A stretch of DNA of 64,000 nt, taken from contig OX597824.1 in assembly GCA_951406725.2 (NCBI GenBank), positions 10,540,001 through 10,604,000 on the forward strand, given 5' to 3'. The notes under the pieces were generated by a model. The model searched no databases. It was not told where the DNA came from and saw only the letters and a program-made list of their open reading frames with translations. Source of the DNA: Octopus vulgaris (Eukaryota). A program made the position numbers and the translations under genes. Shown here piece after piece: positions 9,330 through 60,270 of the stretch (its first letter is position 1; each line of letters begins with the position of its first letter).

Positions 9330-9706
9330 CTCTTTTTACTTGTTTCAGTCATTTGACTGCTACCATGCTGGAGCACTGCCTTTAGGACTTATTCTTTGTA
9401 AGCCCAGTACTTATTCTATCAGTCTCTTTTTGCCAAACCGCTAAGTTACGGGGACATAACACACTAGCTTTGGTTGTCAAACGATGTTGGGAAGGGACAA
9501 ACATACACACTCACACACACACATACATATATATACATATATACGGCGGGCTTCTTTCAGTTTCCGTCTACCAAATCCACTCACAAGGCTTTGGTCAGCC
9601 CGAGGCTATAATAGAAGACACTTGCCCAAGGTGCTACGTAGTGGGACTGAACCCGGAACCATGTGGTTGGTAAGCAAGCTACTTACCACACAGCCACTCC
9701 TGTGCC
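9330..9706 (-). mobile_element. SINE family C
   Basis: Head to tail match to other C copies, with an internal (TA/CA) microsatellite. Confidence 0.9.
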
Positions 9707-9822
9707 TACATGGTGAAAAATGTGAGTCCCTCCCCCCATAAGCAAAAGGTGTAGGAAAACAGTTACTGATCTAGGCATAGTTAGGAGGCTGGCACAATTG
9801 TAAAAGAAAACATGCATATTAA

Positions 9823-10563
9823 TGTGTGTGTATGTATTTATATATATATATATATATATATGTATATGTATATGTATATATATATGTATATGTATATATA
9901 TATGTATATATATATGTATATATATATGTATATATATATATGTATATATATATGTATATATATATGTATGTATATATATATGTATGTATATATATATGTA
10001 TGTATATATATATGTATGTATATATATATGTATGTATATATATATGTATGTATATATATATGTATGTATATATATATATATGTATGTATATATATATATA
10101 TGTATGTATGTATATGTATATATATATGTATGTATATATATATGTATGTATATGTATATATATATGTATATATATATGTATGTATATATATATGTATGTA
10201 TATATATATGTATGTATATATATGTATATATGTATGTATATATATGTATGTGTATATATATGTATGTATATATGTATGTATATATATATGTATATATATG
10301 TATATATATATGTATATATATGTATATATATATGTATATACATGTATATATATGTATATATATGTATATATATGTATATATATGTATATATATGTATGTA
10401 TATATGTATATATGTATGTATATATATGTATATATATGTATGTATATATGTATATATGTATGTATATATATATGTATATATATGTATATATATATGTATA
10501 TATGTATGTATATATATATGTATATATATGTATATATATATGTATATATATGTATATATATAT
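9823..10563. repeat. (TA)n/(TATG) compound microsatellite
   Basis: Direct inspection. Confidence 0.97.
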
Positions 10564-12029
10564 AAATCCTTAAAATCCTTAAAAATGTTTTAGCCCGAAG
10601 GCCGCGGCCATGCTGGGGCACCACCGCTGAATGAGCCACACTAGTTTGTGAATCCACCTCTGATACGTGGCACTTGATCAAGAAGGGAGTTCGATGCTGC
10701 TGCCCGCATCCGTGTCTCCTGTCGTGAGGTAGGTTCATCTGGGACTCCCAACAAGAAGAGATCCAGTTTAGTTTTAAAGAAACCCACATCCACACCATGT
10801 AAGTCTCTCAGGCATTTAGGGAGGATGTTGAAAAGCTGTGGTCCTCTGAAACCCAAGCTGTTGCAGTATCTGGACCTGTATTTTGATGGTGATGTTGGAA
10901 TCCTTGGCACCACGCAGCGGCGCCCCGTTCTGCGGTTGGAGTAACTTTGAATGCCAAAGTTTGGGACAAGACCCTCCAGGATTTTCCAGATGTATATTAC
11001 TGCATATCTCTCCCGCCTCCGCTCCAGGGAGAAGAGGTTTAATACCTTCAGTCTTTCCCAGTAGCTGACATTTTGCATTGAGACGATTTTCTTTGTGTAG
11101 CTTCTCTGAGTTGCTTCGAGTTCTGCTGTTTGTTTTATATTGTGTGGTGACCAAAGTTGGGAGCAGTAGTCCAAGCGGCTGAGGACAAATGTTTTCCATA
11201 GGACCATCAGTGTCTCCTTCTCTCTTGTTCTGAAAGTTCGGAGAATCCATCCAGCTAGCCGTCTGCATTTTATCACCAGATTAGCAATATGCATTTGGAA
11301 AGATGCATCATTGCTCATGTCAATGCCCAGGTCACGCACTGATTTTGACTCAGGGATTGCAATTCTTCCTGGGCCAGTGTATCCAGTCTTCACGTCATTT
11401 ACCTTTGTGTGCCAGTAGCGCAGGGCCTGGAACTTACCTGCATTAAACTGCATGTTGTTGTCCTCAGCCCACCTGTATATTGTGTCCAGCTCATGTTGCA
11501 GATGCGCAATATTTTCAGGGTTCTGTATTGCGTGGGAGACCTTTGTGTCATCTGCATAGCTAGCAAGGGTGGTCATCGTAGCAACTGAAGGCATGTCTGA
11601 AAGGGCCACTATGAACATCAGTGGCCCCAAGACAGTGCCCTGTGGGACACCGCTTGTTATTTGCGTTTCCCTGGAGGTGGCTCCATTGCTCACAACTGCC
11701 TGTTTTCTGTCTTTTAGGAAGTTGTGCAGCCACTCTCCAAGTTTCCCGCCTATGCCGAGACCACGCAGTTTGTGACAGATCATACCATGGTCGACTTTAT
11801 CAAAGGCTTTTGCAAAGTCAAGATATATTACATCCACATTTGAGCCATTTAGTAGCTGTTTCAACACCCAGTCATAGTGTTGCAGGAGCTGTGTTAGGCA
11901 GCCTCTACCTGGTCGAAATCCATGCTGGGTGTCAGACAGTAAGTCATTTTCTTCAAGGAACATGATTAGTTTCTTACGGACTATTCGTTCCATGACTTTG
12001 CTGATGTGTGAGGTCAGAGAGATAGGCCT
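10564..12029 (-). mobile_element. 5'-truncated LINE (CR1/L2 group) with uninterrupted RT and C-terminal frame (10641-12029), short 3' UTR and (tttaaggat)2 tail
   Basis: [53 protein letters not shown], and [17 protein letters not shown] motifs. No endonuclease domain is present. Confidence 0.93.
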
Positions 12030-12692
12030 ATGTATGTATGTATGTATATATGTATGTATGTATATATGTATGTATGTATATATGTATGTATGTATATATG
12101 TATGTATGTATATATGTATGTATGTATGTATATATGTATGTACGTATATGTATGTATATATATGTACGTATATGTATGTATATATATGTACGTATATGTA
12201 TGTATATATATGTACGTATATGTATGTATATATATGTACGTATATGTATGTATATATATGTACGTATATGTATGTACATATATGTACGTATATATATGTA
12301 CATATATATATTATATATATATGTACGTATATATATATGTACGTATATATACGTACATATATGTACGTATATATAGTACATATACGTATATATGTACATA
12401 TATACGTATGTACATATATGTACGTATATATATTATGTACGTATATATATATATATGTACATATATATATATATATATATATTATATAATATATGTACAT
12501 ATATATGTACATATATGTACATATATGTGTATATATATGTACATATATGTATATATATATGTACATATATGTATATATATATGTACATATATGTACGTAT
12601 ATATATGTACATATATGTACGTATATATATGTACATATATACATATATGTATATATATGTACATATATGTACGTATATATATGTACATATAT
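12030..12692. repeat. TATG/TA microsatellite grading into a 24 bp minisatellite (gtacgtatatgtatgtatatatat)
   Basis: Direct inspection. Confidence 0.95.
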
Positions 12693-14849: not shown

Positions 14850-16514
14850 CATCATCATCATCATCATTATTATTGTTTTAGTGTCCACTTTCTCATACTT
14901 GCACAGGCTGCACGGACTCTATTTAGACCGATATTTTTACAGCTGGCTCCTCTTTGTGATGCCATCTCATTTTGCCCAGTGTGCTAATGTTTCTGCCAGC
15001 TCACCGCCTTAAGAAGCTCGGCTTCTTTCAGTTTCTGTCTATCAAATCCACTCACAAGGCTTTAGTAGAAAACTAAAAGTGCCACACAGTGGGATTGAAC
15101 CTGGAACCATGTGATTGGAAACCAAGCTTCTTACACAAACCATGCCTGTGCCTATATGCTGACAAGTATGTTGTAAGGGTCATCCATTGCTAATCTTTTC
15201 TATATCATTTGAATTTTAGTGTATGTAATATTAAAACTAACAAAACCTCTTAGCAGTTGCTTGAATTCCTAGAAATAAGAGCCAAATCTTCAAATCCCAC
15301 CCTATAATCTTAAAAAGAAGTGAAAAATGAGGGACACATTAGATTGGGTAATGTTATTCTAGAAGCATTAACATCCAAGGATGGTCTTGGCTGCAGTGAC
15401 GTTGATCATGAATATGCTTTCTCAGGCCTGGCCTAGGGTTAAACAGCAGCAGCAGCATCTACTTGAAGCCTGAGAAATGTTTTTATGGCGTTACAAACAA
15501 TGGAGAGATGGACTACAAAGCTTATAAATTAATGCAATTAATAACTTAAATTTCCTGTGCACACAACTAAGAGAATATAATTGACATAGTTTCTAGATGT
15601 GGCATCGCTCTTGTGTAGGTGGTTGTTTGACATTAAGTGCAGTGTGAAGAATGGTTTACTATCTGAACAGAAAGATTTTATGCTTGATTTTTTTATTTAA
15701 GCAGACAGTTTTAGATAAGGATTGAGTGTAGACCCTACCTAGAGATCTTGTAATATCTAATGCATAATTAATCATGCAGTAGTTACTAATGTTTTAAAGT
15801 TTTAATCGCTTACCAACAAATTTAGTATCAATTTTTTTTTTTCATTCTTAATTATTTTTGTGTGAATGCTTATGATATAAGTAGTTAAGTTAGTGTTGCT
15901 AATATATTTAATGTTAGGATCATTAAAATACCAGCGAGAAATAATTATGCAGTGAGAGCGTAAAAAAAAATATTAGTCAATAGTTAATGCAATTATCATT
16001 TTTGGGGAGTATGTAGAGAAAGCAACTTTTCGGTCTTATTCTGACCTCATTAGCAAATCATGGTCTTCTTCGTATTTGCCAAAAAGTGATAAGAGGCTTA
16101 ATAGGTAAATATGCAAGATTGCACATTGGTTGACTCGCAATTCAAAATGGATTATCAGCTCTTTTATCCTTTATGCTTTGCTGTTTACTCGTTTCATTAG
16201 ATTGTGGCCATGCTGGGGCACCGTCTAGTAAGGTTTAGTTGAGCAAATCAACCCTAGTACTTATTTTTAAGTATGGTATTTATTCTGTCAGCCTCTTTTG
16301 TCAAATTGCTAAGTTACAGAGACATAAACAAACCAACACTGTTTGTCAAGTAACAGGTGGGGGGACATACACAAGAACACACACACACACACACATGGTA
16401 GGCTTCCACACAGTTTCCGTCTACTAAATTTCACCTACAAGGCATTGGTCAGTCTGGGGCTATGATAAAAGACATTTGCCTAAGGTGCCATGCTGTGGGA
16501 CTAATCCTGAAACT

Positions 16515-16828: not shown

Positions 16829-17167
16829 AATCCTGAAACTATATAGTTGCAAAGAATGTATAAAAGAGAAATTGATTATTTTAACTTATTTATTGTTGTA
16901 GTTTTTATTATAGCCATTTAGACAAGATGGTTTATTTATTTGAGCAATTACTTTTTTCTTTTGTTTTACAGCTGAAATATATCCTTATTAGTAATCCCAT
17001 CAAATAAAATTTAACTGTACTTTTAGTTTGACATCTATAGAAACAGAATTTGTAGGCTCTTTAACCCTTTTCATACCAATCTGTCTGAGATTGCCTCTGG
17101 TTCCATGATATAAACTTATTTAAATTGCTTTAAATTTAAATCTTCCAACAAAATTTCTTAGTGGCTG

Positions 17168-17258
17168 GGCAAGTGTCTTCTACTATAGCCTCGGGCCGAC
17201 CAAAGCCTTGTGAGTGGATTTGGTAGACAGAAACTGAAAGAAGCCCATCATATATATG

Positions 17259-17299
<41 letters not shown>

Positions 17300-17506
17300 T
17301 TATGTGTCTGTTTGTCCCGCCCCCCCAACATCGCTTGACAACCGATGCTGGTGTGTTTACGTCCCCGTAACTTAGCAGTTTGGCAAAAGAGACCAATAGA
17401 ATAAGTACTAGGCTTACAAAGAATAAATCCTGGGGTCGATTTGCTCGACTAAAAGGTGGTGCTCCAGCATAGCCACAGTCTGAAACAAATAAAAGAGTAA
17501 AAGAGT
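17168..17506 (+). mobile_element. SINE family C, 5'-truncated
   Basis: Match to family C body and tail. Confidence 0.85.
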
Positions 17507-17904: not shown

Positions 17905-18308
17905 CTTTATTCTTTTACTTGTTTCATCCATTTGACTGTGGCCATGCTGGAGCACCGCCTTTTTACTCGAGCAAATCGACCCCAGGACTTATTCTTTGTA
18001 AGCCTAGTACTTATTCTATTGGTCTCTTTTGCCGAACCGCTAAGTTACAGGGAAGTAAATACACCAGCATCGGTTGTCAAATTATGTTGGGGGGACAAAC
18101 ACACACACAAACGTATACACACTCACATACATATATATATATATACGATGGGCTTCTTTCAGTTTCCGTCTACCAAATCCACACAGAAGGCTTTGGTCGG
18201 CCCGAGGCTATAGTAGAAGACACTTGCCCAAGGTACCACGCAGTGGGACTGAACCCGGAACCATGTGGTTGGTAAGCAAGCTACTTACCATACAGCCACT
18301 CCTACACC
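17905..18308 (-). mobile_element. SINE family C, full length
   Basis: Match to family C. Confidence 0.9.
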
Positions 18309-20299: not shown

Positions 20300-20429
20300 G
20301 CCATATGTTACACGCTCTTACAACTCCCACCCCTTCCTGATCTACTGTCCATACTTTCTCTTATACTTACTTCCTTGTTCCTTGACAGTTTTGTTTTGAC
20401 ACTACATCACCACCATCTTATTTTCTTCC

Positions 20430-20791
20430 CACATGGTTCTGGGTTCAGTCCCACTACGTGACACCTTGGGTAAGTGTCTTCTACTATAGCCTTGGGCCGA
20501 CCAAAGCCTTGTGAGTGGATTTGGTAGACGGAAACTGAAAGAAGCCCGTCGTATATATGTGTGTATATATATGTATATATATGTATGTTTGTGTCTGTGT
20601 TTGTTCCCCCCAACATCGCTTGAGAACCAATGCTGGTGTGTTTACGTCCCCGTAACTTAGTGGCTCGGCAAAAGAAACCGATAGAATAAGTACTAGGCAT
20701 CCAAAGAATAAGTCCTGGGGTCGATTTGCTCGAGTAAAAAGGCAGTGCTCCCGCATGGCCACAGTCAAATGGCTGAAACTAGTAAAAGAGT
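20430..20791 (+). mobile_element. SINE family C
   Basis: Match to family C. Confidence 0.88.
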
Positions 20792-21431: not shown

Positions 21432-21579
21432 GAGTGGCTGTGTGGTAAGTAGCTTGCTTACCAAGTACGTGGTTCCAGGTTCAATCCCACTGCGTGGCAC
21501 CTTGGACAAGTGTCTTCTACTATAGCCTCCAAAGTCTTGTGAGTGGATTTGGTAGACGGAAACTGAAAGAAGCCCGTCG

Positions 21580-21624
<45 letters not shown>

Positions 21625-21808
21625 TTGTCCCCCACAACATCGCTTGACAACCGATGCTGGTGTGTTTACGTCCCCGTAACTTAGTTTGGCAAAAGAGACC
21701 AATAGAATAAGTACTAGGCTTACAAAGAATAAGTCGATTTGCTCGACTAAAAGGTGGTGCTCCAGCATGGCCGCAGTCAAATGACTGAAACAAGTAAAAG
21801 AGTAAAAG
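21432..21808 (+). mobile_element. SINE family C inside a TA/TG microsatellite
   Basis: Match to family C. Confidence 0.88.
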
Positions 21809-25991: not shown

Positions 25992-26030
25992 GGACCTTCC
26001 TCTCCAGTGCCACCTCTACTGTGTTAGGTC

Positions 26031-27197
26031 ATGTTGCACAACTTTTGGCTGGGGAGACGTTCTGGTAACGTGCTCTTTATTCTTCTCATGTTGACGCTGA
26101 CCTGCAATATAATCTTCTATTCTCAACGCTACCTCAATAAGTCTGCTGCCTGGGAGAATAACTGTGATTTGAACACATATCTGAAAGTGTCTATGAAATT
26201 TATCGAGTCTAAAGGTTCCAAGTCTTTCAAGGAAATTCTTCATAGCTATTGTCCTGGTGTTGATGAAAATGACAAGGATGTTCAGCGCCTGATTTGGGCT
26301 CTTTTTGATCTTGTGAATTTCTGCAAGAAAAATGTTAGCATTACAGCTCGTCCTGAGACCAACAGACCCATTCTAACTATGTTTACATCATGGGATGTGA
26401 ATGAAACCAAATATATTGTCCATAACAACACAGTCTCAAACTGGATAAAGCTAAAGAAATATGTAAACCCCATCATTTTCACAAACAGCAGCAGGTACAA
26501 AAAACTTTGTAGTGATGCTGGCTGGACTGTTTACCCCATTACACATTATGCTGCTGGTGGAGCTCCTGTCTTGAAAACAATGTTTTTAAAAGCCATGGAG
26601 AACTTTAACACTACATTTTATGCTTTTGCAAACGGTGATATTCTCTTTGAAGATGGTCTTATCGATACTCTGTTCTTGCTTATGGAAGAAATGAGCATTG
26701 ACAACATGTCTCATCCTTTACTTCTAATTGGCCGGAGGACTAATGTAAAATATTTGTCCAGAAAGGATGCATCCACCCATAAAAGTCTGAGGGGTGTGGC
26801 AAGAGAAAAAGGACACCTATTCTTAGTAAATGCTGAAGATTATTTTATTACAAACCGCAACTATCCCTGGAAGGATATTCCTAACCTCGTGATAGGACGT
26901 CCAGCTTATGACAACTGGCTTGTAGCGCACGCTCGTCGTTCTAACTTTACTGTTATTGATGCTTCTGATACGATACTCGCTGTACATCAAACTACAAATG
27001 CTGGCAACTGGGAAGGCCACAAAAGAAAATTCAGTAATTATAATGATATTCTTTTAAAAAAACTCAAGCTGCCTCGGCGTTATCGTAACGGCGAGACAGG
27101 GTGTACGCCACTACGGACAGCATATGACCTATGTAGTAGAATAGTCGTTCAAGAACGGAAAGTATTCCCCCCACAGTGTCACATAAAACCAGGATGA
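26031..27197 (+). CDS. Uncharacterised type II membrane protein, putative glycosyltransferase (388 aa, single coding exon)
   Basis: Long non-repetitive ORF. Short basic N-terminus then a hydrophobic signal anchor (VLFILLMLTLTCNIIFY), several N-X-S/T sequons, and motifs FYAFANGDILF, GRRTNV, DYFIT, IGRPAYDNWLV, IDASDTILAVHQ. The function is an inference. Confidence 0.88.
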   Translation: MLHNFWLGRRSGNVLFILLMLTLTCNIIFYSQRYLNKSAAWENNCDLNTYLKVSMKFIESKGSKSFKEILHSYCPGVDENDKDVQRLIWALFDLVNFCKKNVSITARPETNRPILTMFTSWDVNETKYIVHNNTVSNWIKLKKYVNPIIFTNSSRYKKLCSDAGWTVYPITHYAAGGAPVLKTMFLKAMENFNTTFYAFANGDILFEDGLIDTLFLLMEEMSIDNMSHPLLLIGRRTNVKYLSRKDASTHKSLRGVAREKGHLFLVNAEDYFITNRNYPWKDIPNLVIGRPAYDNWLVAHARRSNFTVIDASDTILAVHQTTNAGNWEGHKRKFSNYNDILLKKLKLPRRYRNGETGCTPLRTAYDLCSRIVVQERKVFPPQCHIKPG

Positions 27198-33234: not shown

Positions 33235-33615
33235 ACTCTTATTCTTTTAATTGCTTCAGTCATTTGACTGTGGCCATGCTGGAGCACCGCATTTAGTCAA
33301 ACAAATTGACCCTAGGACTTTGTAAGCCTAGTACTTATTCTATCAGTCTCTTTTGCCAAACTGCTAAGTTACGGGGATGTAAACACCAGCATCAGTTGCC
33401 AAGCAATTGTGGGGGGACAAATACAGACACACACACACAGATATATATATACAATAGGCTTCTTTCCGTTTCCATCTACCAAATCCACTCACAAGGCTTT
33501 GGTCAGCCTGAAGGTATAGTAGAAGACATCTGCCCAAGGTGCCACACAGTGGGACTGAACCTGGAACCATGTGGTTGGGAAGCAAGCTTCTTAGCACACA
33601 ACCACTCCGTGCCTA
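33235..33615 (-). mobile_element. SINE family C
   Basis: Match to family C. Confidence 0.85.
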
Positions 33616-39929: not shown

Positions 39930-40376
39930 GGCGCAGGAGTGGCTGTGTGGTAAGTAGCTTTATTTTATATATATAGGCGCAGGAGTGGCTGTGTGGTAAG
40001 TAGCTTGCTAACCAGCCACATGGTTCCGGGTTCAGTCCCACTGCGTGGCATCTTGGGCAAGTGTCTTCTGCTATAGCCCCGGGCCGACCAATGCCTTGTG
40101 AGTGGATTTGGTAGACGGAAACTGAAAGAAGCCTGTCGTATATATGTATATATATATATGTGTTTGTTTGTGTGTCTGTGTTTGTTCACCTAGCATTGCT
40201 TGACAACCGATGCTGGTGTGTTTACGTCCCCGTCACTTAGCGGTTCGGCAAAAAAGAGACCGATAGAATAAGTACTGGGCTTACAAAGAATAAGTCCCGG
40301 GGTCGAGTTGCTCGATTAAAGGCGGTGCTCCAGCATGGCCGCAGTCAAATGACTGAAACAAGTAAAAGAGAAAAAG
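39930..40376 (+). mobile_element. SINE family C, full length and young, with a duplicated 5' ~30 bp
   Basis: ggcgcaggagtggctgtgtggtaag head occurs at 39930 and 39977; gggttcagtccc B-box; tail gactgaaacaagtaaaagag. Confidence 0.92.
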
Positions 40377-40549
40377 ATATATATACATATATATGTATAT
40401 ATATATATATACATATATATTTATTTATATATATATATATACACATATATATATTATATTATATATTGCGTATATGTATGCATAAATAGATAGATGTGTT
40501 TGTGTGTGCATGTGTAAATATACATGTACATTATATATTACATATACAC

Positions 40550-43125: not shown

Positions 43126-43640
43126 CGGCACAGGTGCGGCTGTGTGGTAAGAAGCTTGTTCCCCAACCACATGGTTCCGAGTTCAATCCCACTATGTGTC
43201 ACCTTGGACAAGTGTCTTCTACTATGGCCTTGGGTCAAGTAAAGTCTTGTGAGTGAATTTGGTAGACAGAAACTGAAAGAAGCCCATTGGAATTTTGTCA
43301 GTGAACGGGTCACGGTCTCAAAGCGACGAAAGTATTTTGGAAAATTAAATTTAAATGTTGCAATGAATCTAACGGTTTTTGTGTATTTCTTAAATGGCTT
43401 ACAAACACCTTCCATGCTGCAATTGTTTATATGTGTGTGTGTGTGTGTGTGTGTGTTTGTCCCTCCCACGATCGCTTGACAATGATGTTGGTGTGTTTAC
43501 ATCCCCATTACTTTGTGGTTTGGCAAAAGAGACTGATAGAATAAGTACTAGGCTTACAAAGGATGTCCCAGGGTCGATTTGTTCAGCTAAAGCCGGTGCT
43601 CCAACATGACTGCAGTCAAATAACTGAAACAAGTAAAAGA
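43126..43640 (+). mobile_element. SINE family C carrying a ~140 bp insert at its internal microsatellite
   Basis: C head and tail flank unrelated sequence at about 43288-43428. Confidence 0.8.
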
Positions 43641-44554: not shown

Positions 44555-44779
44555 TACTCTTTTATTTGTTTCAGTCATGTGACTGTGGCCATGCTAGAGC
44601 ACTGCCTTTAGTCGAGCTAATCAACCCCAGGTCTTATTCCTTGTAAGCCTAGTACTTATTCTATTGGTCTCTTTTGCTGAACCGCTAAGTTACGGGGACA
44701 TAAACACAACAGCATCAGTTGTCAAGTGATGTTGGGGGGATAAACACAAACACACAAACATATACACAGACATACATAC

Positions 44780-44824
<45 letters not shown>

Positions 44825-45040
44825 AGAAGCCCGTTGTATATATGTATATATATATATATATACATATATACATATATACGATGGGCTTCTTTCAGTTTCC
44901 GTCTACCAAATCCACTCATAAGGCTTTGGTCGGCCCGAGGCTATAGTAGAAGACATTTGCCCAAGGTGCTACGCAGTGGGACTGAACCCAGAACCATGTA
45001 GTTCGTAAGCAAGCTACTTACCACACAGCCACTCCTACAC
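44555..45040 (-). mobile_element. SINE family C
   Basis: Match to family C, with a small internal duplication or inversion around the microsatellite. Confidence 0.88.
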
Positions 45041-45845: not shown

Positions 45846-46344
45846 TATAAGTCCTTCAGCAATCCTAGTTGAGCAGACCTATGATCAAAAGTGTTTCAGT
45901 CATAACCATCCCATATTTATTTCTAGATATTCTGTGCGATATCTCAAATATTTGGCTGGTATTTTTAGCAGCTTGAATGACCTCATAGAGACTCCCTCAT
46001 TGTTGTATTTAATAGAAGACACACTATAAAACCTGACAAGTATTAGAGAGATGAAGCTTAGATGGAGCTGGCTTTTGTACCACTCGTGTAGTTAAGCTGG
46101 CACTACAGATATATTCATACATACGTGCAGGCAGGCATGGTAAGAAGCTTGTTTCCCAACCACATGGTCCTGGGTTCAGTCCCACTGTGTGGGACCTTAA
46201 GCAAGTGCCTTCTACCTTAGCCTCAGGCTGACCAAAAACTTGTAAATGGGTTAGGTAGACAGAAATGGGGGTCGTCTTTACTTTGTTTTCTCCCCTACTT
46301 CTTCGCTCTCCTGTGTGACCCTTCTGTCTGGCAGTCGCCATGAT

Positions 46345-46525
46345 AGATCGTTAGCCACTACACACATTTTTTTGTCTCCTTGTTTTTTTTCTGTGTCCCT
46401 TTCTGTAGAAAAGCACAGGCTCGAAACGTAAAAGACTTTTTCTATTCCTGAGCGTTATACTAATACATTTGTTTGTTTTGTACACCACCTGTCTTCGTCT
46501 TTTGTTTTTTTCGTAAACTCTCCCC
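46345..46525 (+). mobile_element. Penelope-like pseudo-LTR fragment
   Basis: About 180 bp repeat also present inverted at 50533-50712. It contains a minimal hammerhead-like motif. Confidence 0.65.
46399..46434 (+). ncRNA. Minimal type I hammerhead-ribozyme-like motif
   Basis: cttt-CTGTAGAA-aagc acag gctc-GAAA-cg-TA-aaag: stem I cttt/aaag, imperfect stem II, palindromic acgt stem III. Confidence 0.55.
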
Positions 46526-47031
46526 AGAGATTGAAAGCAACCTGCCGTGTGTGTGTGTGTGCATGTATGTGTCTGCGTGTGTGAGTCTTTGTGTCTGTGT
46601 CTATCCGCCGCTACTGTTTGACAACCGGCGTTGGAGTGTTTACATCTCTGTAACTTAGCAGTTCAGTGAAGGAGTCTGATAAAATAACTACCGGGATTAA
46701 AAACAAAACAATAAGTACTGGGGTCGATTCATTCAACCAAAATTCTTCAAGATGCTGCCCCAGCATGGCCACAGTCTAATGACTGAAATAAGTAAAAGAT
46801 ACAGATAAAGATGCACACACACACACACACACTAACACACACACACAAACACATACACACATTCACATGCACACACACACACACTCACATGTATGAATAT
46901 AATTATATATACATACATATATAGAAATATTATTATTTCTAAATCTCTCTAAAGGAGGCTATGGCAGCAGTATTGGGTATTAATAGTTATTGCCAAGCTA
47001 ACATGGAAGTCCAGAAAAATACATATATAGT

Positions 47032-50784: not shown

Positions 50785-51183
50785 TTTTACTTTTTTTTTT
50801 GTTTCAGTCATTTGACTGCGGCCTTACTGGAGCACCGCCTTTAGTCAAGCAACTCGACCCCGGGACTTATTCTTTGTAAGCCCAGTACTTATTCTATCGG
50901 TCTCTTTTGCTGAACCGCTAAGTTATGGGGACATAAACACACCAGCATCGGTTGTCAAGCAATGCTAAGGGGACAAACACAGACACACAAACATACACGC
51001 ACACATATATATATATACATATATACGACGGGCTTCTTTCAGTTTCCGTCTACCAAATCCACCCCCAAGGCTTTGGTCAGCCTGAGCCTATAGTAGAAAA
51101 CACTTGCCCAAGGTTCCACGCAGTGGGACTGAACCTGGAACCATGTGGTTGGTAAGCAAGCTTCTTACCACACAGCCACTCCT

Positions 51184-51188
<5 letters not shown>
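50785..51188 (-). mobile_element. SINE family C between (TA)n tracts
   Basis: Full-length match. Confidence 0.9.
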
Positions 51189-57429: not shown

Positions 57430-59520
57430 ACTGGCAGCTACAAAGTCTATTTCACCTGGCATACTGATAGAAACAGCATGGCATTACTGGCATGGATGTA
57501 GAGTTCATTTTCACATATGTTAATGAAATCATAAATGAAAATTGAAAAGAGAAGCTAGCCAAGTATTAAGCCACAGGGGACTGATTTTACCAGATGAATG
57601 ACAGATCAGGATCAACCTCAAAATTTACTTCATCAGTTTCCATTTTCATGTAAACTGTGTCAAAAAAAGAAAAGAAAAACTGCCTTCTACAAATGAGTTA
57701 ATTTTTCAGAAAGTAACCATGTAGTTGTTTGAGGATCAATAAATTACTTATTCCATTACTTTGCTGACAATACTGAGAGATGCTAGAAATCCAGCAGTCT
57801 GGTGGTTCAAGCCTCTATTTACAAATGTGATCTTACACTAGTCTGGAATTATGCCAGTAAAGCAAAAGTGAAAGTGAAAGAGGCTCTGGTAGAGACTAAC
57901 TAGTTCTTTGCAACATTCTTTCAGAACTTTGGCTTTGTAGAATTTGATCACAAATTCTACTTTGCCATAGTGATTTTAATACAAGGATTGTGTCTTGCAG
58001 TGTTGTATAAGAAGATTACTTGATGTTTAGTTGTTAGTCATCAGCATTTGACATATAACACTTTGGTTGAAGATATTGGTTTTTGCCAACTGTCAATGTG
58101 TATTCAGTAGCTATGTTCAATGTCTGGAATATACACGTGGCAAGTTCTAGAGAGACAGTGTTTATAATGCTCTATAAATTTTTGCTGCAGAAATTAATCT
58201 TTGTCAGGTTTTTCTTCAGTCTGGCATCGTCGTGTTTTCTTTCTGACTCACTTTGTACTTGATTGTTGTTATCCTTGTTTGTGTAAACATTTTTCTATTC
58301 ACTGGTGTGCAACTCTTCTTCAGTCAGCAGAAGGAATGTCATTGAATTAAGTTTTGTCTCCTGTTTTTTCACTTTGATAACTTAAGCATTCAGATTACTC
58401 TGACAAATGTAAAACTTATTTATTCACACAGGTATGAATTAACCCTGAATTATCTTGTACCTTTGAGATTTCAATGATGTGATTGATTATTTTTAGAATG
58501 ATATTATGGCGGTTTGTTTATTCTACCTTAAGCTTTCTCTTAGGTTATATTATTTTATTTGGCTTTTTTCTGTGTAAGGGAGAATATAATGATTAAACGT
58601 CACTTATACTTAAGTGTTACCATTATACCTAAAACCCTAACTACAGTATATAACGTCATAGAGACATATACACATGAAACGCTATGAATATTAATGACAT
58701 GTATGTTGAATATTTTCTTCGTGTCCTTTTAACCTCTATAAGAAAATATAAATTAAGGATTACAGAAATGCATACTTATTTATGCTCAGTTGAAAAAACA
58801 AACGTGAAGAGAAACATTTTCTTAATTATTTTTATTATATAAATACAACATTTTATGTTATTTACAGTAGGAAAGAAAGATAATTTTGTCGTGTAGAAGA
58901 ACAACTATAAATTCATTAACTAATTCTTATTTCTAACTAATACATTAATCAACAAATCAAAATAGACTTGTGATTAACTTTAGACATGGCATGCGAATTA
59001 CCGATGTCTCAAAAGAGTGAGTGTCGTGGAGTTTAGTGACATCCAACAAACATTGAAGTTTTTCCCAAAATCCAGAGTTTTTATAACTGCTCAACTTGAC
59101 TTAAAAGAATTGAAATCCATTACAAATATTCTTTACGAAACTTTTAGAATCTTTATATGAGCAGTTATAATGGAAAAAACGAAAATAATAATTCTTCGGC
59201 AAAGACATTACATCATATTGCCAATTCGTGCCATATTTCAAAATGGCTAAAATGTTTATTGCTACAATATTGTATGGTAGGTATGAGAGGCCAGATATAG
59301 CTGGTTTGAACATGATACAGGTAGAATATTTTGGCCAGATATGACCTGTTTAAATTCTAAAAGATTGAGGACTTTGGGATAAAGTGTTTTTACATATCGT
59401 GTTTTATGTGGCATGGTCATGCCTGTGGTAATCAAGTTTATTTCAAAGTCAACTGCATGGTTCTGGGTTTGATCTTATTATGTGATGCTTAGAAAAATTT
59501 CCTTTAAATATCTTCTGAGT

Positions 59521-60270
59521 AGTCTGCGTGGTAAGTAGCTTGCTTACCAACCACATAGTTCCAGGTTCAGTCCCACTACGTGGCAACTTGGGCAAGTGTC
59601 TTCTACTATAGCCTCGGGCCGATCAAAACCTTGTGAGTGGATTTGGTTGATGGAAACTGAAAGCCCGTCGTATATATGTATATATATATATATGTGTATG
59701 TGTATGTGTGTGTATATGTTTGTGTGCCTGTGTTTGTCCTCCCAACATCACTTGACAACAGATGCTGGTGTGTTTACGTCCCTGTAACTTAGCGGTTTGT
59801 CAAAAGAGACCGATGGAATAAGTACTAGGCTTACAAAGAATAAGTCCCAGGATCGATTTGCTCGACTAAAGGTGGTGCCCCAGCATGGCCACAGTCAAAT
59901 GACTGAAACAAGTAAAAGAGTAAAAAGAGTAAAAGAGTAAATCGAACCCAGTACTTTTTTTTTTAAAAGCCTGGTACTTATTCTATCTGTTTCTTTTGCC
60001 AAATTACTAAGTTATAGGGATGTATACAAACCAACCCCAGTTGTCGAGCAGTAGTGGGAGGCAAACACAAACACAAAGATCTAGACACACACATATATAT
60101 ATACATATATACAACTTACTTTTTTTTTCAGTTTCTGTCTGCTAAATCCACTCACAAAGCTCTTTCTTGTCAGCCTGGAGCTATAGCAGAAGACACTTGC
60201 CCAAGGTGCCATGCTGTTTGACTGAACCCAGAACTGTTTCTGGGAAGCAAATTTTTTCTTACAACACATA
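59521..60270. mobile_element. Two SINE C copies tail to tail (+ 59521-59938, - 59941-60270)
   Basis: Match to family C on opposite strands. Confidence 0.8.

What the first reader, a model, noticed from the sequence alone, without database searches (positions are those of the whole stretch)
10564..10640. LINE 3' end and SINE family C 3' end share a motif and a covarying hairpin: candidate SINE-LINE partnership
Seen: the LINE 3' UTR (minus strand) reads GGTGGTGCCCCAGCATGGCCGC-GGCC ttcg GGCT-AAAACA-(tttaaggat)2. SINE C ends GG(C/T)GGTGC(T/C)CCAGCATGGCC(G/A)C-AGTC aaat GACT-GAAACA-(agtaaaag)n, e.g. 40321-40376 and 59871-59938. The 22 nt motif is nearly identical; the following stem-loop keeps its pairing with different sequence, then AAACA and a short tandem tail. 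Established: CR1/L2-group LINEs are 'stringent' and mobilise SINEs that share their 3' stem-loop (e.g. eel UnaL2/UnaSINE). Inference: this LINE family or a sister family drove SINE C amplification.
Basis: partly seen in the sequence, partly recalled or inferred. Interest (0 to 1): 0.72.

Follow-up and report, generated by a model that had tools for sequence, protein, structure and literature searches.

The report
Octopus LINE tail that seeds SINEs
A very abundant short jumping element ends in the same 39-base, predicted double-hairpin tail as a whole group of long jumping elements in this genome and likely borrows their copying enzyme, most likely from a now-broken sister family rather than the copy in this window; copies of two long families often begin just in front of that tail, where small cellular RNAs and a second short-element family are joined on.

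Summary
Observation confirmed; interpretation right in its 'sister family' form. The window element (LINE-A, 10564-12031 minus) is a 5'-truncated copy of a young CR1-like LINE family in a likely octopus genome. Its tail (22-nt motif, itself a predicted hairpin, second hairpin, RAAAC) is shared by at least five sister LINE families. SINE C (about 150,000 exact tails) matches broken family LINE-E best: 35/39 nt against 29/39 for LINE-A, same stem, same TAAAAGAR repeat, same modest (TA)n targeting (13/46 and 11/36, against 14/20 for LINE-A). LINE-A ages also overlap SINE C, so cross-mobilisation is open. Extra result: 32 of 77 unselected LINE-A/B copies are 'tail-only', breaking within 16 nt of one point; 1,969 share one junction; U6, pre-tRNAs and SINE heads are fused there, and a second amplified SINE joins LINE-B2's tail at that junction. 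Stringent SINE-LINE pairs are known; I found no paper on an octopus CR1 pair or a fixed break. This scan's earlier notes already saw such small-RNA fusions on other DNA.

The parts
10564..12031 (-). 5'-truncated copy of LINE-A, a young APE+RT non-LTR retrotransposon family (CR1-like)
   Evidence: 99.7% identical over its length to full-length copy L038; RVT_1; family copies 99-100% identical
10641..12026 (-). C-terminal 461 codons of ORF2 (reverse transcriptase and C-terminal region), uninterrupted, with stop codon
10628..10640 (-). 3' UTR stretch before hairpin 1; tail-only LINE-A copies elsewhere begin in its last bases
10604..10627 (-). Predicted hairpin 1 (contains the shared 22-nt motif, 10625-10604; G-G mismatch, 4-nt loop)
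10592..10603 (-). Predicted hairpin 2, GGCC-UUCG-GGCU; family-variable
10564..10591 (-). AAAAC plus family-specific terminal repeats (TTTAAGGA type)
9785..10563 (.). TA/TACA microsatellite on the 3' side of the LINE copy (a similar tract lies at about 12032-12690): target site
   Evidence: family-wide preference
39976..40377 (+). SINE C copy: head with A- and B-box-like stretches, central TA/TG microsatellite, 3' body, shared tail
40321..40377 (+). LINE-derived tail of SINE C: hairpin 1, AGUC-AAAU-GACU hairpin 2, GAAAC, TAAAAGAG repeats; similarity to LINEs starts at 40321
59520..59938 (+). SINE C copy (5'-shortened head), tail 59871-59938
9334..9706 (-). SINE C copy
17166..17497 (+). SINE C copy, hairpin 2 partly deleted
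17911..18303 (-). SINE C copy
20429..20790 (+). SINE C copy
21432..21802 (+). SINE C copy
33243..33608 (-). SINE C copy
43127..43640 (+). SINE C copy
44557..45036 (-). SINE C copy
50790..51187 (-). SINE C copy
16184..16513 (-). Older SINE C relative (TAAT-loop type) with the same motif
46138..46799 (+). Older SINE C relative (TAAT loop) with the same motif

Best explanation
SINE C carries the same 39-base 3' end as a group of sister LINE families in this genome, an end predicted to fold as two adjacent hairpins, and it is likely copied by their reverse transcriptase through that end, most likely by the now-broken family LINE-E or its close kin rather than by the family in this window. Shown: shared sequence, family-specific second hairpin and terminal repeat, best match to LINE-E, similar insertion-site habit and overlapping age. 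Inferred from the eel and zebrafish L2 systems: ORF2 protein binds the hairpins, nicks the target and primes reverse transcription at the terminal repeats. Shown: LINE-A and LINE-B copies very often begin 3-6 bases in front of hairpin 1, and U6, unprocessed tRNAs, SINE heads and the body of a second SINE family are joined at that point. Inferred: either the LINE RNA is cut in the short single-stranded linker before hairpin 1 or the enzyme stalls there, and it then jumps to another RNA end or joins the target; this would hand the minimal recognition module to polymerase III transcripts and explain why SINE C's likeness to LINEs starts exactly at hairpin 1.
For: Tail identity over 39 nt: SINE C vs LINE-E 35 and 34, vs LINE-B 30-32, vs LINE-A 29 and 30. 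LINE-E found by protein search; 30 of 30 loci from a query that stops before the motif carry motif, AGTC/GACT-type stem and mostly TAAAAGAA/TAAGAGAA repeats; E-related L408 has the same repeat. (TA)4 or (AT)4 within 50 nt after the tail: SINE C 13/46 unselected, 9/36 young set; LINE-E 11/36 (p=1.0); LINE-A 14/20 (p=0.002); background 8%. Divergence: LINE-E 1.5-7.6%; 30 of 43 random SINE C copies lie between 1.5 and 8%. All 7 tails folded give both hairpins; on 15 family representatives 96.4% of cells pair and 3 of 13 pairs change on both sides. No SINE C body similarity to LINE-A, B, E or F upstream of the motif. Break point: (2.85 junctions per 100 nt in the first 16 nt, 0.03 over 17-167, 0.10 over 168-690); 1,969 exact junction matches; Rfam U6 and tRNA at the junction; 40 of 40 scored hits cover U6 plus tail; SINE-D junction.
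Against: The loop of hairpin 2 differs between SINE C (AAAU/UAAU) and LINE-E (AUUG), and loops carry specificity in zebrafish L2 (PMC4176376, abstract). SINE C lacks the outermost pair of hairpin 1 that the main LINE families keep (pair 5-26). LINE-E is small (71 exact 35-mers, 9 of which have SINE-type loops and those checked were SINE copies) against about 150,000 SINE tails, and appears dead: 22 of 28 hits at 80% or more have stops, longest open frame 467 aa, yet SINE C has copies 99% identical at unlinked sites. The LINE-A lineage spans 0.6-4.7% (14 of 15 unselected long copies), so age does not exclude it. SINE C vs LINE-B target habit is borderline (23/46, p=0.054). Covariation rests on about three events among related sequences: pairs with double changes were reached by 156 of 500 shuffles. 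LINE-E age and target samples were chosen by similarity or exact pattern, not at random; microsatellite decay confounds the target comparison.
Confidence: 0.68

Rival explanations
1. Cross-mobilisation: SINE C took its tail from the E clade, but because hairpin 1 is nearly invariant it is copied by whichever sister family is active (LINE-A, B or F), and the young, abundant families drove much of the amplification.
For: Intact ORF2 copies exist for A, B and F but none was found for E; SINE C is still producing 99% identical copies; A and B lineages overlap SINE C in age; A- and B-type tails number about 16,500 against 71 exact E-type 35-mers.
Against: Young SINE C copies keep the low (TA)n rate (9/36) unlike LINE-A (14/20, p=0.002) and LINE-F (22/26); LINE-B (23/46) is not excluded.
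Confidence: 0.2
2. The true partner is an unseen family of this clade with the exact AAAU loop, absent from or collapsed in this assembly.
For: Loop mismatch with LINE-E; protein searches scored only 150 of about 39,000 candidates each; intact E-clade relatives exist in other data sets (P0004, P0005).
Against: Three pattern searches for SINE-type hairpins behind non-SINE sequence found no LINE: 0 matches; 30 of 240 inspected, none with an adjoining LINE 3' end; 9 SINE-loop hits fetched, all SINE-derived.
Confidence: 0.1
3. The shared motif is an accident: a SINE fragment fused to this LINE copy, or a chance likeness.
For: Only 39 bases are shared and SINE C is very dense (about one per 10 kb in 400 kb of random sequence).
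Against: The motif follows the ORF2 stop in five LINE families about 70% alike in protein and, with a longer loop, in a 43% relative, each with its own second hairpin.
Confidence: 0.01
4. For the fusions only: the tail-only pieces inserted into pre-existing U6 or tRNA genes at their T-rich terminators, or the break point is set only by A/T microhomology with the target.
For: LINE-B junctions sit at AAT, which offers microhomology to TA-rich targets and U/A-ended RNAs.
Against: Flanks of 30 U6 fusions are unrelated (one 5' and one 3' pair with weak similarity); whole units have flanking duplications, e.g. L385 inside a SINE C microsatellite, L292, L266; LINE-A has no AAT there yet 5 of its 8 short copies break at the same distance.
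Confidence: 0.08

Closest known systems
Bivalve BivaV-SINE2 and BivaCORE-SINE1 with CR1-14_CGi (PMC4824008, passages; PMC4758252, passages; reassigned to CR1-Zenon in PMC11481361, passages)
   Same: Molluscan tRNA-type SINEs sharing a 35-61 bp 3' end with a CR1-group LINE, stem-loops with compensatory changes; several SINE bodies on one tail.
   Different: Octopod clade; five co-existing sister LINE families with family-specific second hairpins and repeats; sequence identity with the bivalve tails was not tested (figures and supplements not seen).
Eel UnaL2/UnaSINE1 and zebrafish ZfL2-1/ZfL2-2 (PMC4176376, abstract; PMC3747384, passages)
   Same: Hairpin plus short terminal repeats, no poly(A) in most families; stem general, loop specific is the model borrowed here.
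   Different: L2 clade, experimentally tested; here two adjacent predicted hairpins and no assay.
U6/LINE chimeric retrocopies: U6-L1, platypus U6-L2/Mon-1, Anolis (PMC4476161, passages; PMC6789731, passages; PMC11838501, passages)
   Same: U6 ending in T's fused to a LINE 3' end as one insertion.
   Different: U6/L1 junctions occur throughout L1 with no motif (PMC6789731) and human tRNA/L1 chimeras are mostly antisense halves (PMC11838501); here sense-oriented U6 and whole precursor tRNAs with trailer join at one point before hairpin 1, and most tail-only inserts have no small RNA at all. The platypus passage says 'short L2 sequence' without stating a fixed junction.
Passerine TguSINE1/PittSINE (PMC5729268, passages)
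   Same: tRNA head plus CR1 hairpin tail; new SINE proposed to arise by template switching.
   Different: There inferred from two finished families; here one-off fusions and an amplified family share one junction.
Octopus OK, OR1, OR2 SINEs (Ohshima and Okada 1994; seen only as citations in PMC4758252 and PMC4824008)
   Same: Octopus tRNA-derived SINEs, OR1/OR2 listed as CORE-SINEs; SINE C may be one of them.

Membership tests
Autonomous non-LTR retrotransposon (LINE) with APE and RT | ORF2 with apurinic-type endonuclease and RT, preceded by ORF1 | tested here: met
   L038: Exo_endo_phos and RVT_1 in a 1039-codon frame; 298-aa ORF1 with a weak CCCH finger below Pfam cut-off
Autonomous non-LTR retrotransposon (LINE) with APE and RT | Dispersed copies with common 3' end and variable 5' truncation | tested here: met
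CR1 clade (including CR1-Zenon) | RT phylogeny groups with reference CR1 elements | not testable with these tools
   No named CR1 reference was returned; the tree holds only unnamed relatives and two Argonauta proteins. CR1 label rests on recalled RT motifs.
CR1 clade (including CR1-Zenon) | No RNase H, no C-terminal CCHC knuckle, short tandem 3' repeats instead of poly(A) | tested here: met
   No such Pfam hit, no CCHC pattern; repeats in A, B, E; LINE-F ends in an A-run. Shared with L2, so not diagnostic alone.
L1/Tx1 clade | Close similarity to L1 ORF2 and C-terminal cysteine knuckle | tested here: not met
   94 bits to human L1 ORF2 against about 500 bits to its own relatives; no CCHC
Stringent SINE-LINE pair | SINE 3' end homologous to LINE 3' end | tested here: met
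   35/39 with LINE-E, 29/39 with LINE-A
Stringent SINE-LINE pair | Conserved stem-loop with compensatory changes | tested here: inconclusive
   Folds and pairing consistent but only three double-changed pairs among related sequences; R-scape not run
Stringent SINE-LINE pair | Overlapping activity | tested here: met
   (small samples; youngest SINE copies postdate the LINE-E copies seen)
Stringent SINE-LINE pair | LINE protein mobilises the SINE in trans, dependent on the tail | not testable with these tools
   needs an assay
tRNA-derived SINE | tRNA-related head with A and B boxes | tested here: inconclusive
   Box-like stretches visible at 39985-39995 and 40029-40039; no ARAGORN or Rfam tRNA match
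tRNA-derived SINE | Short, non-coding, high-copy, independent insertions with simple-repeat 3' end | tested here: met
CORE-SINE (OR1/OR2) | Central CORE domain | not testable with these tools
   Resemblance recalled only; no reference sequence could be read
Small-RNA/LINE chimeric retrocopy | Small RNA and LINE 3' end in one insertion, unrelated flanks, short target duplication | tested here: met
   (duplications clear in the three examples inspected; often hidden in TA tracts)

The most novel reading that the evidence does not exclude
This LINE clade has a built-in break point just in front of its recognition hairpin, so that it routinely sheds a roughly 55-60 nt mobile tail module; the module is fused to U6, precursor tRNAs and SINE heads at that point, and this is how the genome's SINE families got their tails: SINE-D is a parent SINE joined to the LINE-B2 tail at that very junction, and SINE C's LINE-derived part starts a few bases inside it. 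SINE birth would then be a frequent, position-defined by-product of one RNA structure.
Probability: 0.45. Interest if true: 0.72.

Novelty: new variant of a known kind. Interest (0 to 1): 0.52.

Why it matters
The partnership itself is textbook, but it names the likely engine of one of the most abundant repeats in an octopus genome, where published repeat surveys that I read list SINE and CR1 families without pairing them. The sister families form a natural series (same hairpin 1, different hairpin 2, different repeats and target habits) for testing which part gives specificity and whether a SINE can outlive its donor by using a sister. The fixed break makes two old questions testable: why LINE copies are 5'-truncated, and how tRNA heads acquire LINE tails. 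One-off fusions and an amplified family at one junction are the intermediates that the template-switch model predicts.

Tried and rejected
Search for a LINE with SINE C's exact loop: three patterns found none. A gapped pattern linking ORF end and tail could not be run, so that link was sought by protein queries instead. One search used a query that contained the tail, so its 40 of 40 is not an independent test that LINE-A bodies carry it; the tail-free queries are. ARAGORN and Rfam did not recognise the heads of SINE C or SINE-D. Rfam scans of 40 of the 60 further unselected loci and 9 junction loci found nothing at gathering threshold. Clade naming through protein databases, the Atlas and PDB gave no CR1-named hit. 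RNA data: no RNA holder listed; contigs of four runs laid on a LINE-B 3' region cannot show ends or expression. The 'full or cut' U6 label missed a second U6 variant and is not used. An AACC-TCAA-GGCT tail type (6 of 90 loci) has a mismatch in hairpin 2 and near-identical upstream flanks, probably one fragment carried in another repeat; it was left out of the 15-row alignment and of the junction counts, as were LINE-D (different lengths), 2 older unassigned tails (junction counts only) and 5 SINE-D copies. SINEBase supplements and the CORE-SINE paper could not be read; Repbase, Dfam and the Zenodo library of PMC13282606 were not available, so prior description there is not excluded. Literature searches that bear on novelty: (0 papers).

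Full report
Observation. The quoted sequences are in place. The LINE 3' UTR on the minus strand runs from the stop codon (10643-10641) through a 22-nt motif (10625-10604), GGCC-TTCG-GGCT, AAAAC and two repeats to 10564. SINE C copies end in the same motif (20/22 and 21/22 identical), AGTC-AAAT-GACT, GAAAC and TAAAAGAG repeats. Chance is excluded in the window (15 matches, 0.11 expected; alignment score reached by 0 of 1000 randomisations) and in the genome (170,064 exact motif-N12-RAAAC, control 0; 93 of the first 100 listed have the SINE-type hairpin by eye, and 16,519 lack both SINE-type bases of stem pair 3, which leaves about 150,000).

The genome. G000 has 2.8 Gb in 227 contigs. The only close named protein relatives of the LINE are from Argonauta hians, so the host is likely an octopod; that is inference.

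The LINE. The window holds a 1,468-bp 5'-truncated copy between TA-rich microsatellites, 99.7% identical to a full-length copy of about 5 kb (L038) with a 298-aa ORF1 bearing a weak CCCH finger and a 1039-codon endonuclease-RT frame. The 40 best genomic hits are 99-100% identical; unselected long copies spread 0.6-4.7% from their majority, one at 11.5%. It is not L1/Tx1-like. The CR1 label rests on recalled RT motifs and was not tested against references.

The tail belongs to a clade. Neighbouring loci and protein searches revealed sister families about 70% alike in ORF2: LINE-B (AGCT-loop-AGCT, several loops and repeats), LINE-F (AGCT-CTG-AGCT, A-run), LINE-E (AGTC-ATTG-GACT, TAAAAGAA repeats) and older E-related copies, plus a 43% relative (LINE-D) with longer loops. 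A, B, E, F and the Argonauta proteins form one group with full support; E groups with two intact proteins from other data sets. All seven tails folded give two adjacent hairpins (z -1.7 to -3.4), kept in longer context. The 22-nt motif is hairpin 1; its variable bases fall in the loop, at a C-G/U-G wobble and at the outer pair. On 15 representatives 96.4% of cells pair against at most 43% for slid controls; three pairs change on both sides (outer pair of hairpin 1, two in hairpin 2), a count that 156 of 500 shuffles reach, while the covariation score was reached by none. These rows are related, so this supports but does not prove the structure.

Which family is the partner. Over the 39 shared bases the 40321 copy of SINE C matches LINE-E at 35, LINE-B at 30-31 and LINE-A at 29. 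Only E shares the stem and the TAAAAGAR repeat. A TA tract follows 13 of 46 unselected SINE C tails, 9 of 36 in the young set, 11 of 36 LINE-E, 23 of 46 LINE-B, 14 of 20 unselected LINE-A and 22 of 26 LINE-F tails; background 8%. Thirty of 43 SINE C copies from 400 kb of arbitrary stretches fall at 1.5-8% divergence, 2 below and 11 above; LINE-E copies lie at 1.5-7.6%. Against: the loop differs, LINE-E is small and broken, SINE C is still young in part, and the A and B lineages overlap it in age. No LINE with SINE C's own loop turned up, but protein searches scored only 150 of about 39,000 candidates. My reading: tail from the E clade and main amplification by it (0.68), with cross-mobilisation by active sisters, LINE-B above all, as the main rival.

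A fixed break in front of the tail. I took the first 90 of the 16,519 non-SINE-C tails listed along contig C1 and measured how far each matches its family upstream of the CAGCATGG core (hairpin 1 begins about 10-12 nt upstream of it). Of 54 LINE-B tails, 24 stop within 15 nt (17 at 13-15), 2 at 24, none from 25 to 167, 28 at 168 or more; of 23 LINE-A tails, 8 stop within 16 nt (5 at 13-16), none from 17 to 185, 15 beyond (two B rows are one inverted pair; 13 rows set aside as listed under Tried and rejected). Junction rates are 2.85, 0.03 and 0.10 per 100 nt in the three zones. Genome-wide, 1,969 LINE-B tails begin at AATGGCGG behind non-family bases; none of 30 inspected has LINE body adjoining. 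Three of those 30 carry U6 and one an intron-containing tRNA with trailer by Rfam; a partial tRNA and a SINE head are seen by eye. Among the 90 unselected loci four are Rfam-confirmed fusions (2 U6, 2 tRNA), all on B tails. A search with U6 plus tail gave 40 of 40 scored hits covering both; the 30 viewed have 28 B-type and 2 F-type tails, junctions of T's and a few A's, and unrelated flanks. That query favours this junction and B tails, so it is a lower bound on number and says nothing on U6 joined elsewhere. Flanking duplications enclose RNA and tail together in L292, L266 and L385.

A second pair born at that junction. A short SINE (SINE-D; L032 and 5 of the 90 unselected loci) has a 39/39 match to the LINE-B2 tail and its repeat. 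Its body is the first part of a longer SINE that elsewhere continues differently; the switch to the tail occurs at a shared AA directly before TGGCGG, the hot-spot junction. One copy of the same body carries the SINE C tail instead (L232).

Mechanism. Shown: shared ends, break distribution, fusions. Inferred from L2 work (PMC4176376 abstract; PMC3747384 passages): ORF2 binds the hairpins and primes at the repeats. For the break, both junction clusters lie in the short linker between hairpin 1 and a weakly predicted upstream helix (z -0.9 and -1.7), which fits either cleavage leaving a protected 3' fragment or stalling at the foot of that helix. RtcB ligation, shown for U6/L1, needs a cyclic phosphate (PMC6789731 passages); precursor tRNA trailers are not expected to have one (my knowledge), and extra A's at junctions suggest template jumping with microhomology. 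Microhomology alone is not enough, since LINE-A lacks the AAT yet breaks at the same distance.

Prior art. Molluscan SINE-CR1 pairs with compensatory stems are published for bivalves (PMC4824008, PMC4758252, PMC11481361; passages). For octopus I read parts 1-2 of 3 of PMC13282606 and passages of PMC8967140 and PMC10294476: they report abundant SINEs and recently active CR1 families but no partner analysis; the Ohshima review has no octopus entry. U6/LINE chimeras are known, including with stringent L2 in platypus (PMC4476161 passages), but L1 junctions are scattered. Ten searches found no paper on an octopus CR1 partner or a fixed break; Repbase, SINEBase supplements, the 1994 octopus SINE paper and subscription journals were not visible. 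Earlier notes of this scan describe small RNAs fused to a 50-base LINE end in an octopus genome and fixed-point tRNA fusions in other animals; I saw them after my own and treat them as unchecked. Other notes on this genome concern Tx1-tailed SINEs; I did not check whether those are different families.

Verdict. Real, and of a known kind: a stringent SINE-LINE partnership whose likely partner is a sister family. The added, directly measured feature, a fixed break that sheds the recognition module and at which a second SINE family is joined, lifts it to a new variant. Interest 0.52.

Noticed in passing
L038:3690-8760; L033, L034, L040, L041, L045, L049: LINE-A has several copies with uninterrupted ORF2 frames of 983-1039 codons; sisters B and F also have intact frames, so three related families look recently active at once.
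   Followed up: partly
LINE-A loci L001-L050: Strong preference for (TA)n tracts: 29 of 30 top-hit and 14 of 20 unselected copies, against 8% background; sister families are found nested side by side in the same tracts (L036, L044, L050, L121).
   Followed up: partly
L032:3939-4170, L281, L326, L345, L359, L372: SINE-D: second SINE family with an exact LINE-B2 tail; roughly 900 copies by extrapolation from 5 of 90.
   Followed up: yes
L232 minus strand, about 4139: SINE-D-type body joined to a SINE C tail (tail swap).
   Followed up: no
L292, L266, L307: Precursor tRNAs with trailer (Leu-CAA type with intron, Gln-TTG type, a partial Glu-like one; identities read by eye) fused to LINE-B tails.
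   Followed up: partly
L375-L404: At least two U6 sequence variants appear among the fusions, differing in the 5' stem.
   Followed up: no
L282/L283 (G000:C1:4337686-4337897): Two tail-only LINE-B pieces in inverted orientation about 180 bp apart.
   Followed up: no
L257, L284, L327, L328, L336, L342: AACC-TCAA-GGCT tail fragment with the same upstream flank in six loci, probably carried inside another repeat or a duplicated segment.
   Followed up: no
L200 (G000:C9:94991500-94993800): A tail-only LINE-E piece inside a 245-bp tandem repeat; suggests LINE-E also sheds short tails.
   Followed up: no
L041:370-1926: Distant LINE (43% identity) with the same two-hairpin layout and longer loops.
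   Followed up: partly
window 26028-27194 +: 389-codon open frame that looks like a host coding exon; no Pfam hit.
   Followed up: partly
window 39930-39960: Partial duplicate of the SINE C head just before the 39976 copy.
   Followed up: no
window 37569 +: A copy of the longer parent SINE of SINE-D, with a different 3' part.
   Followed up: no
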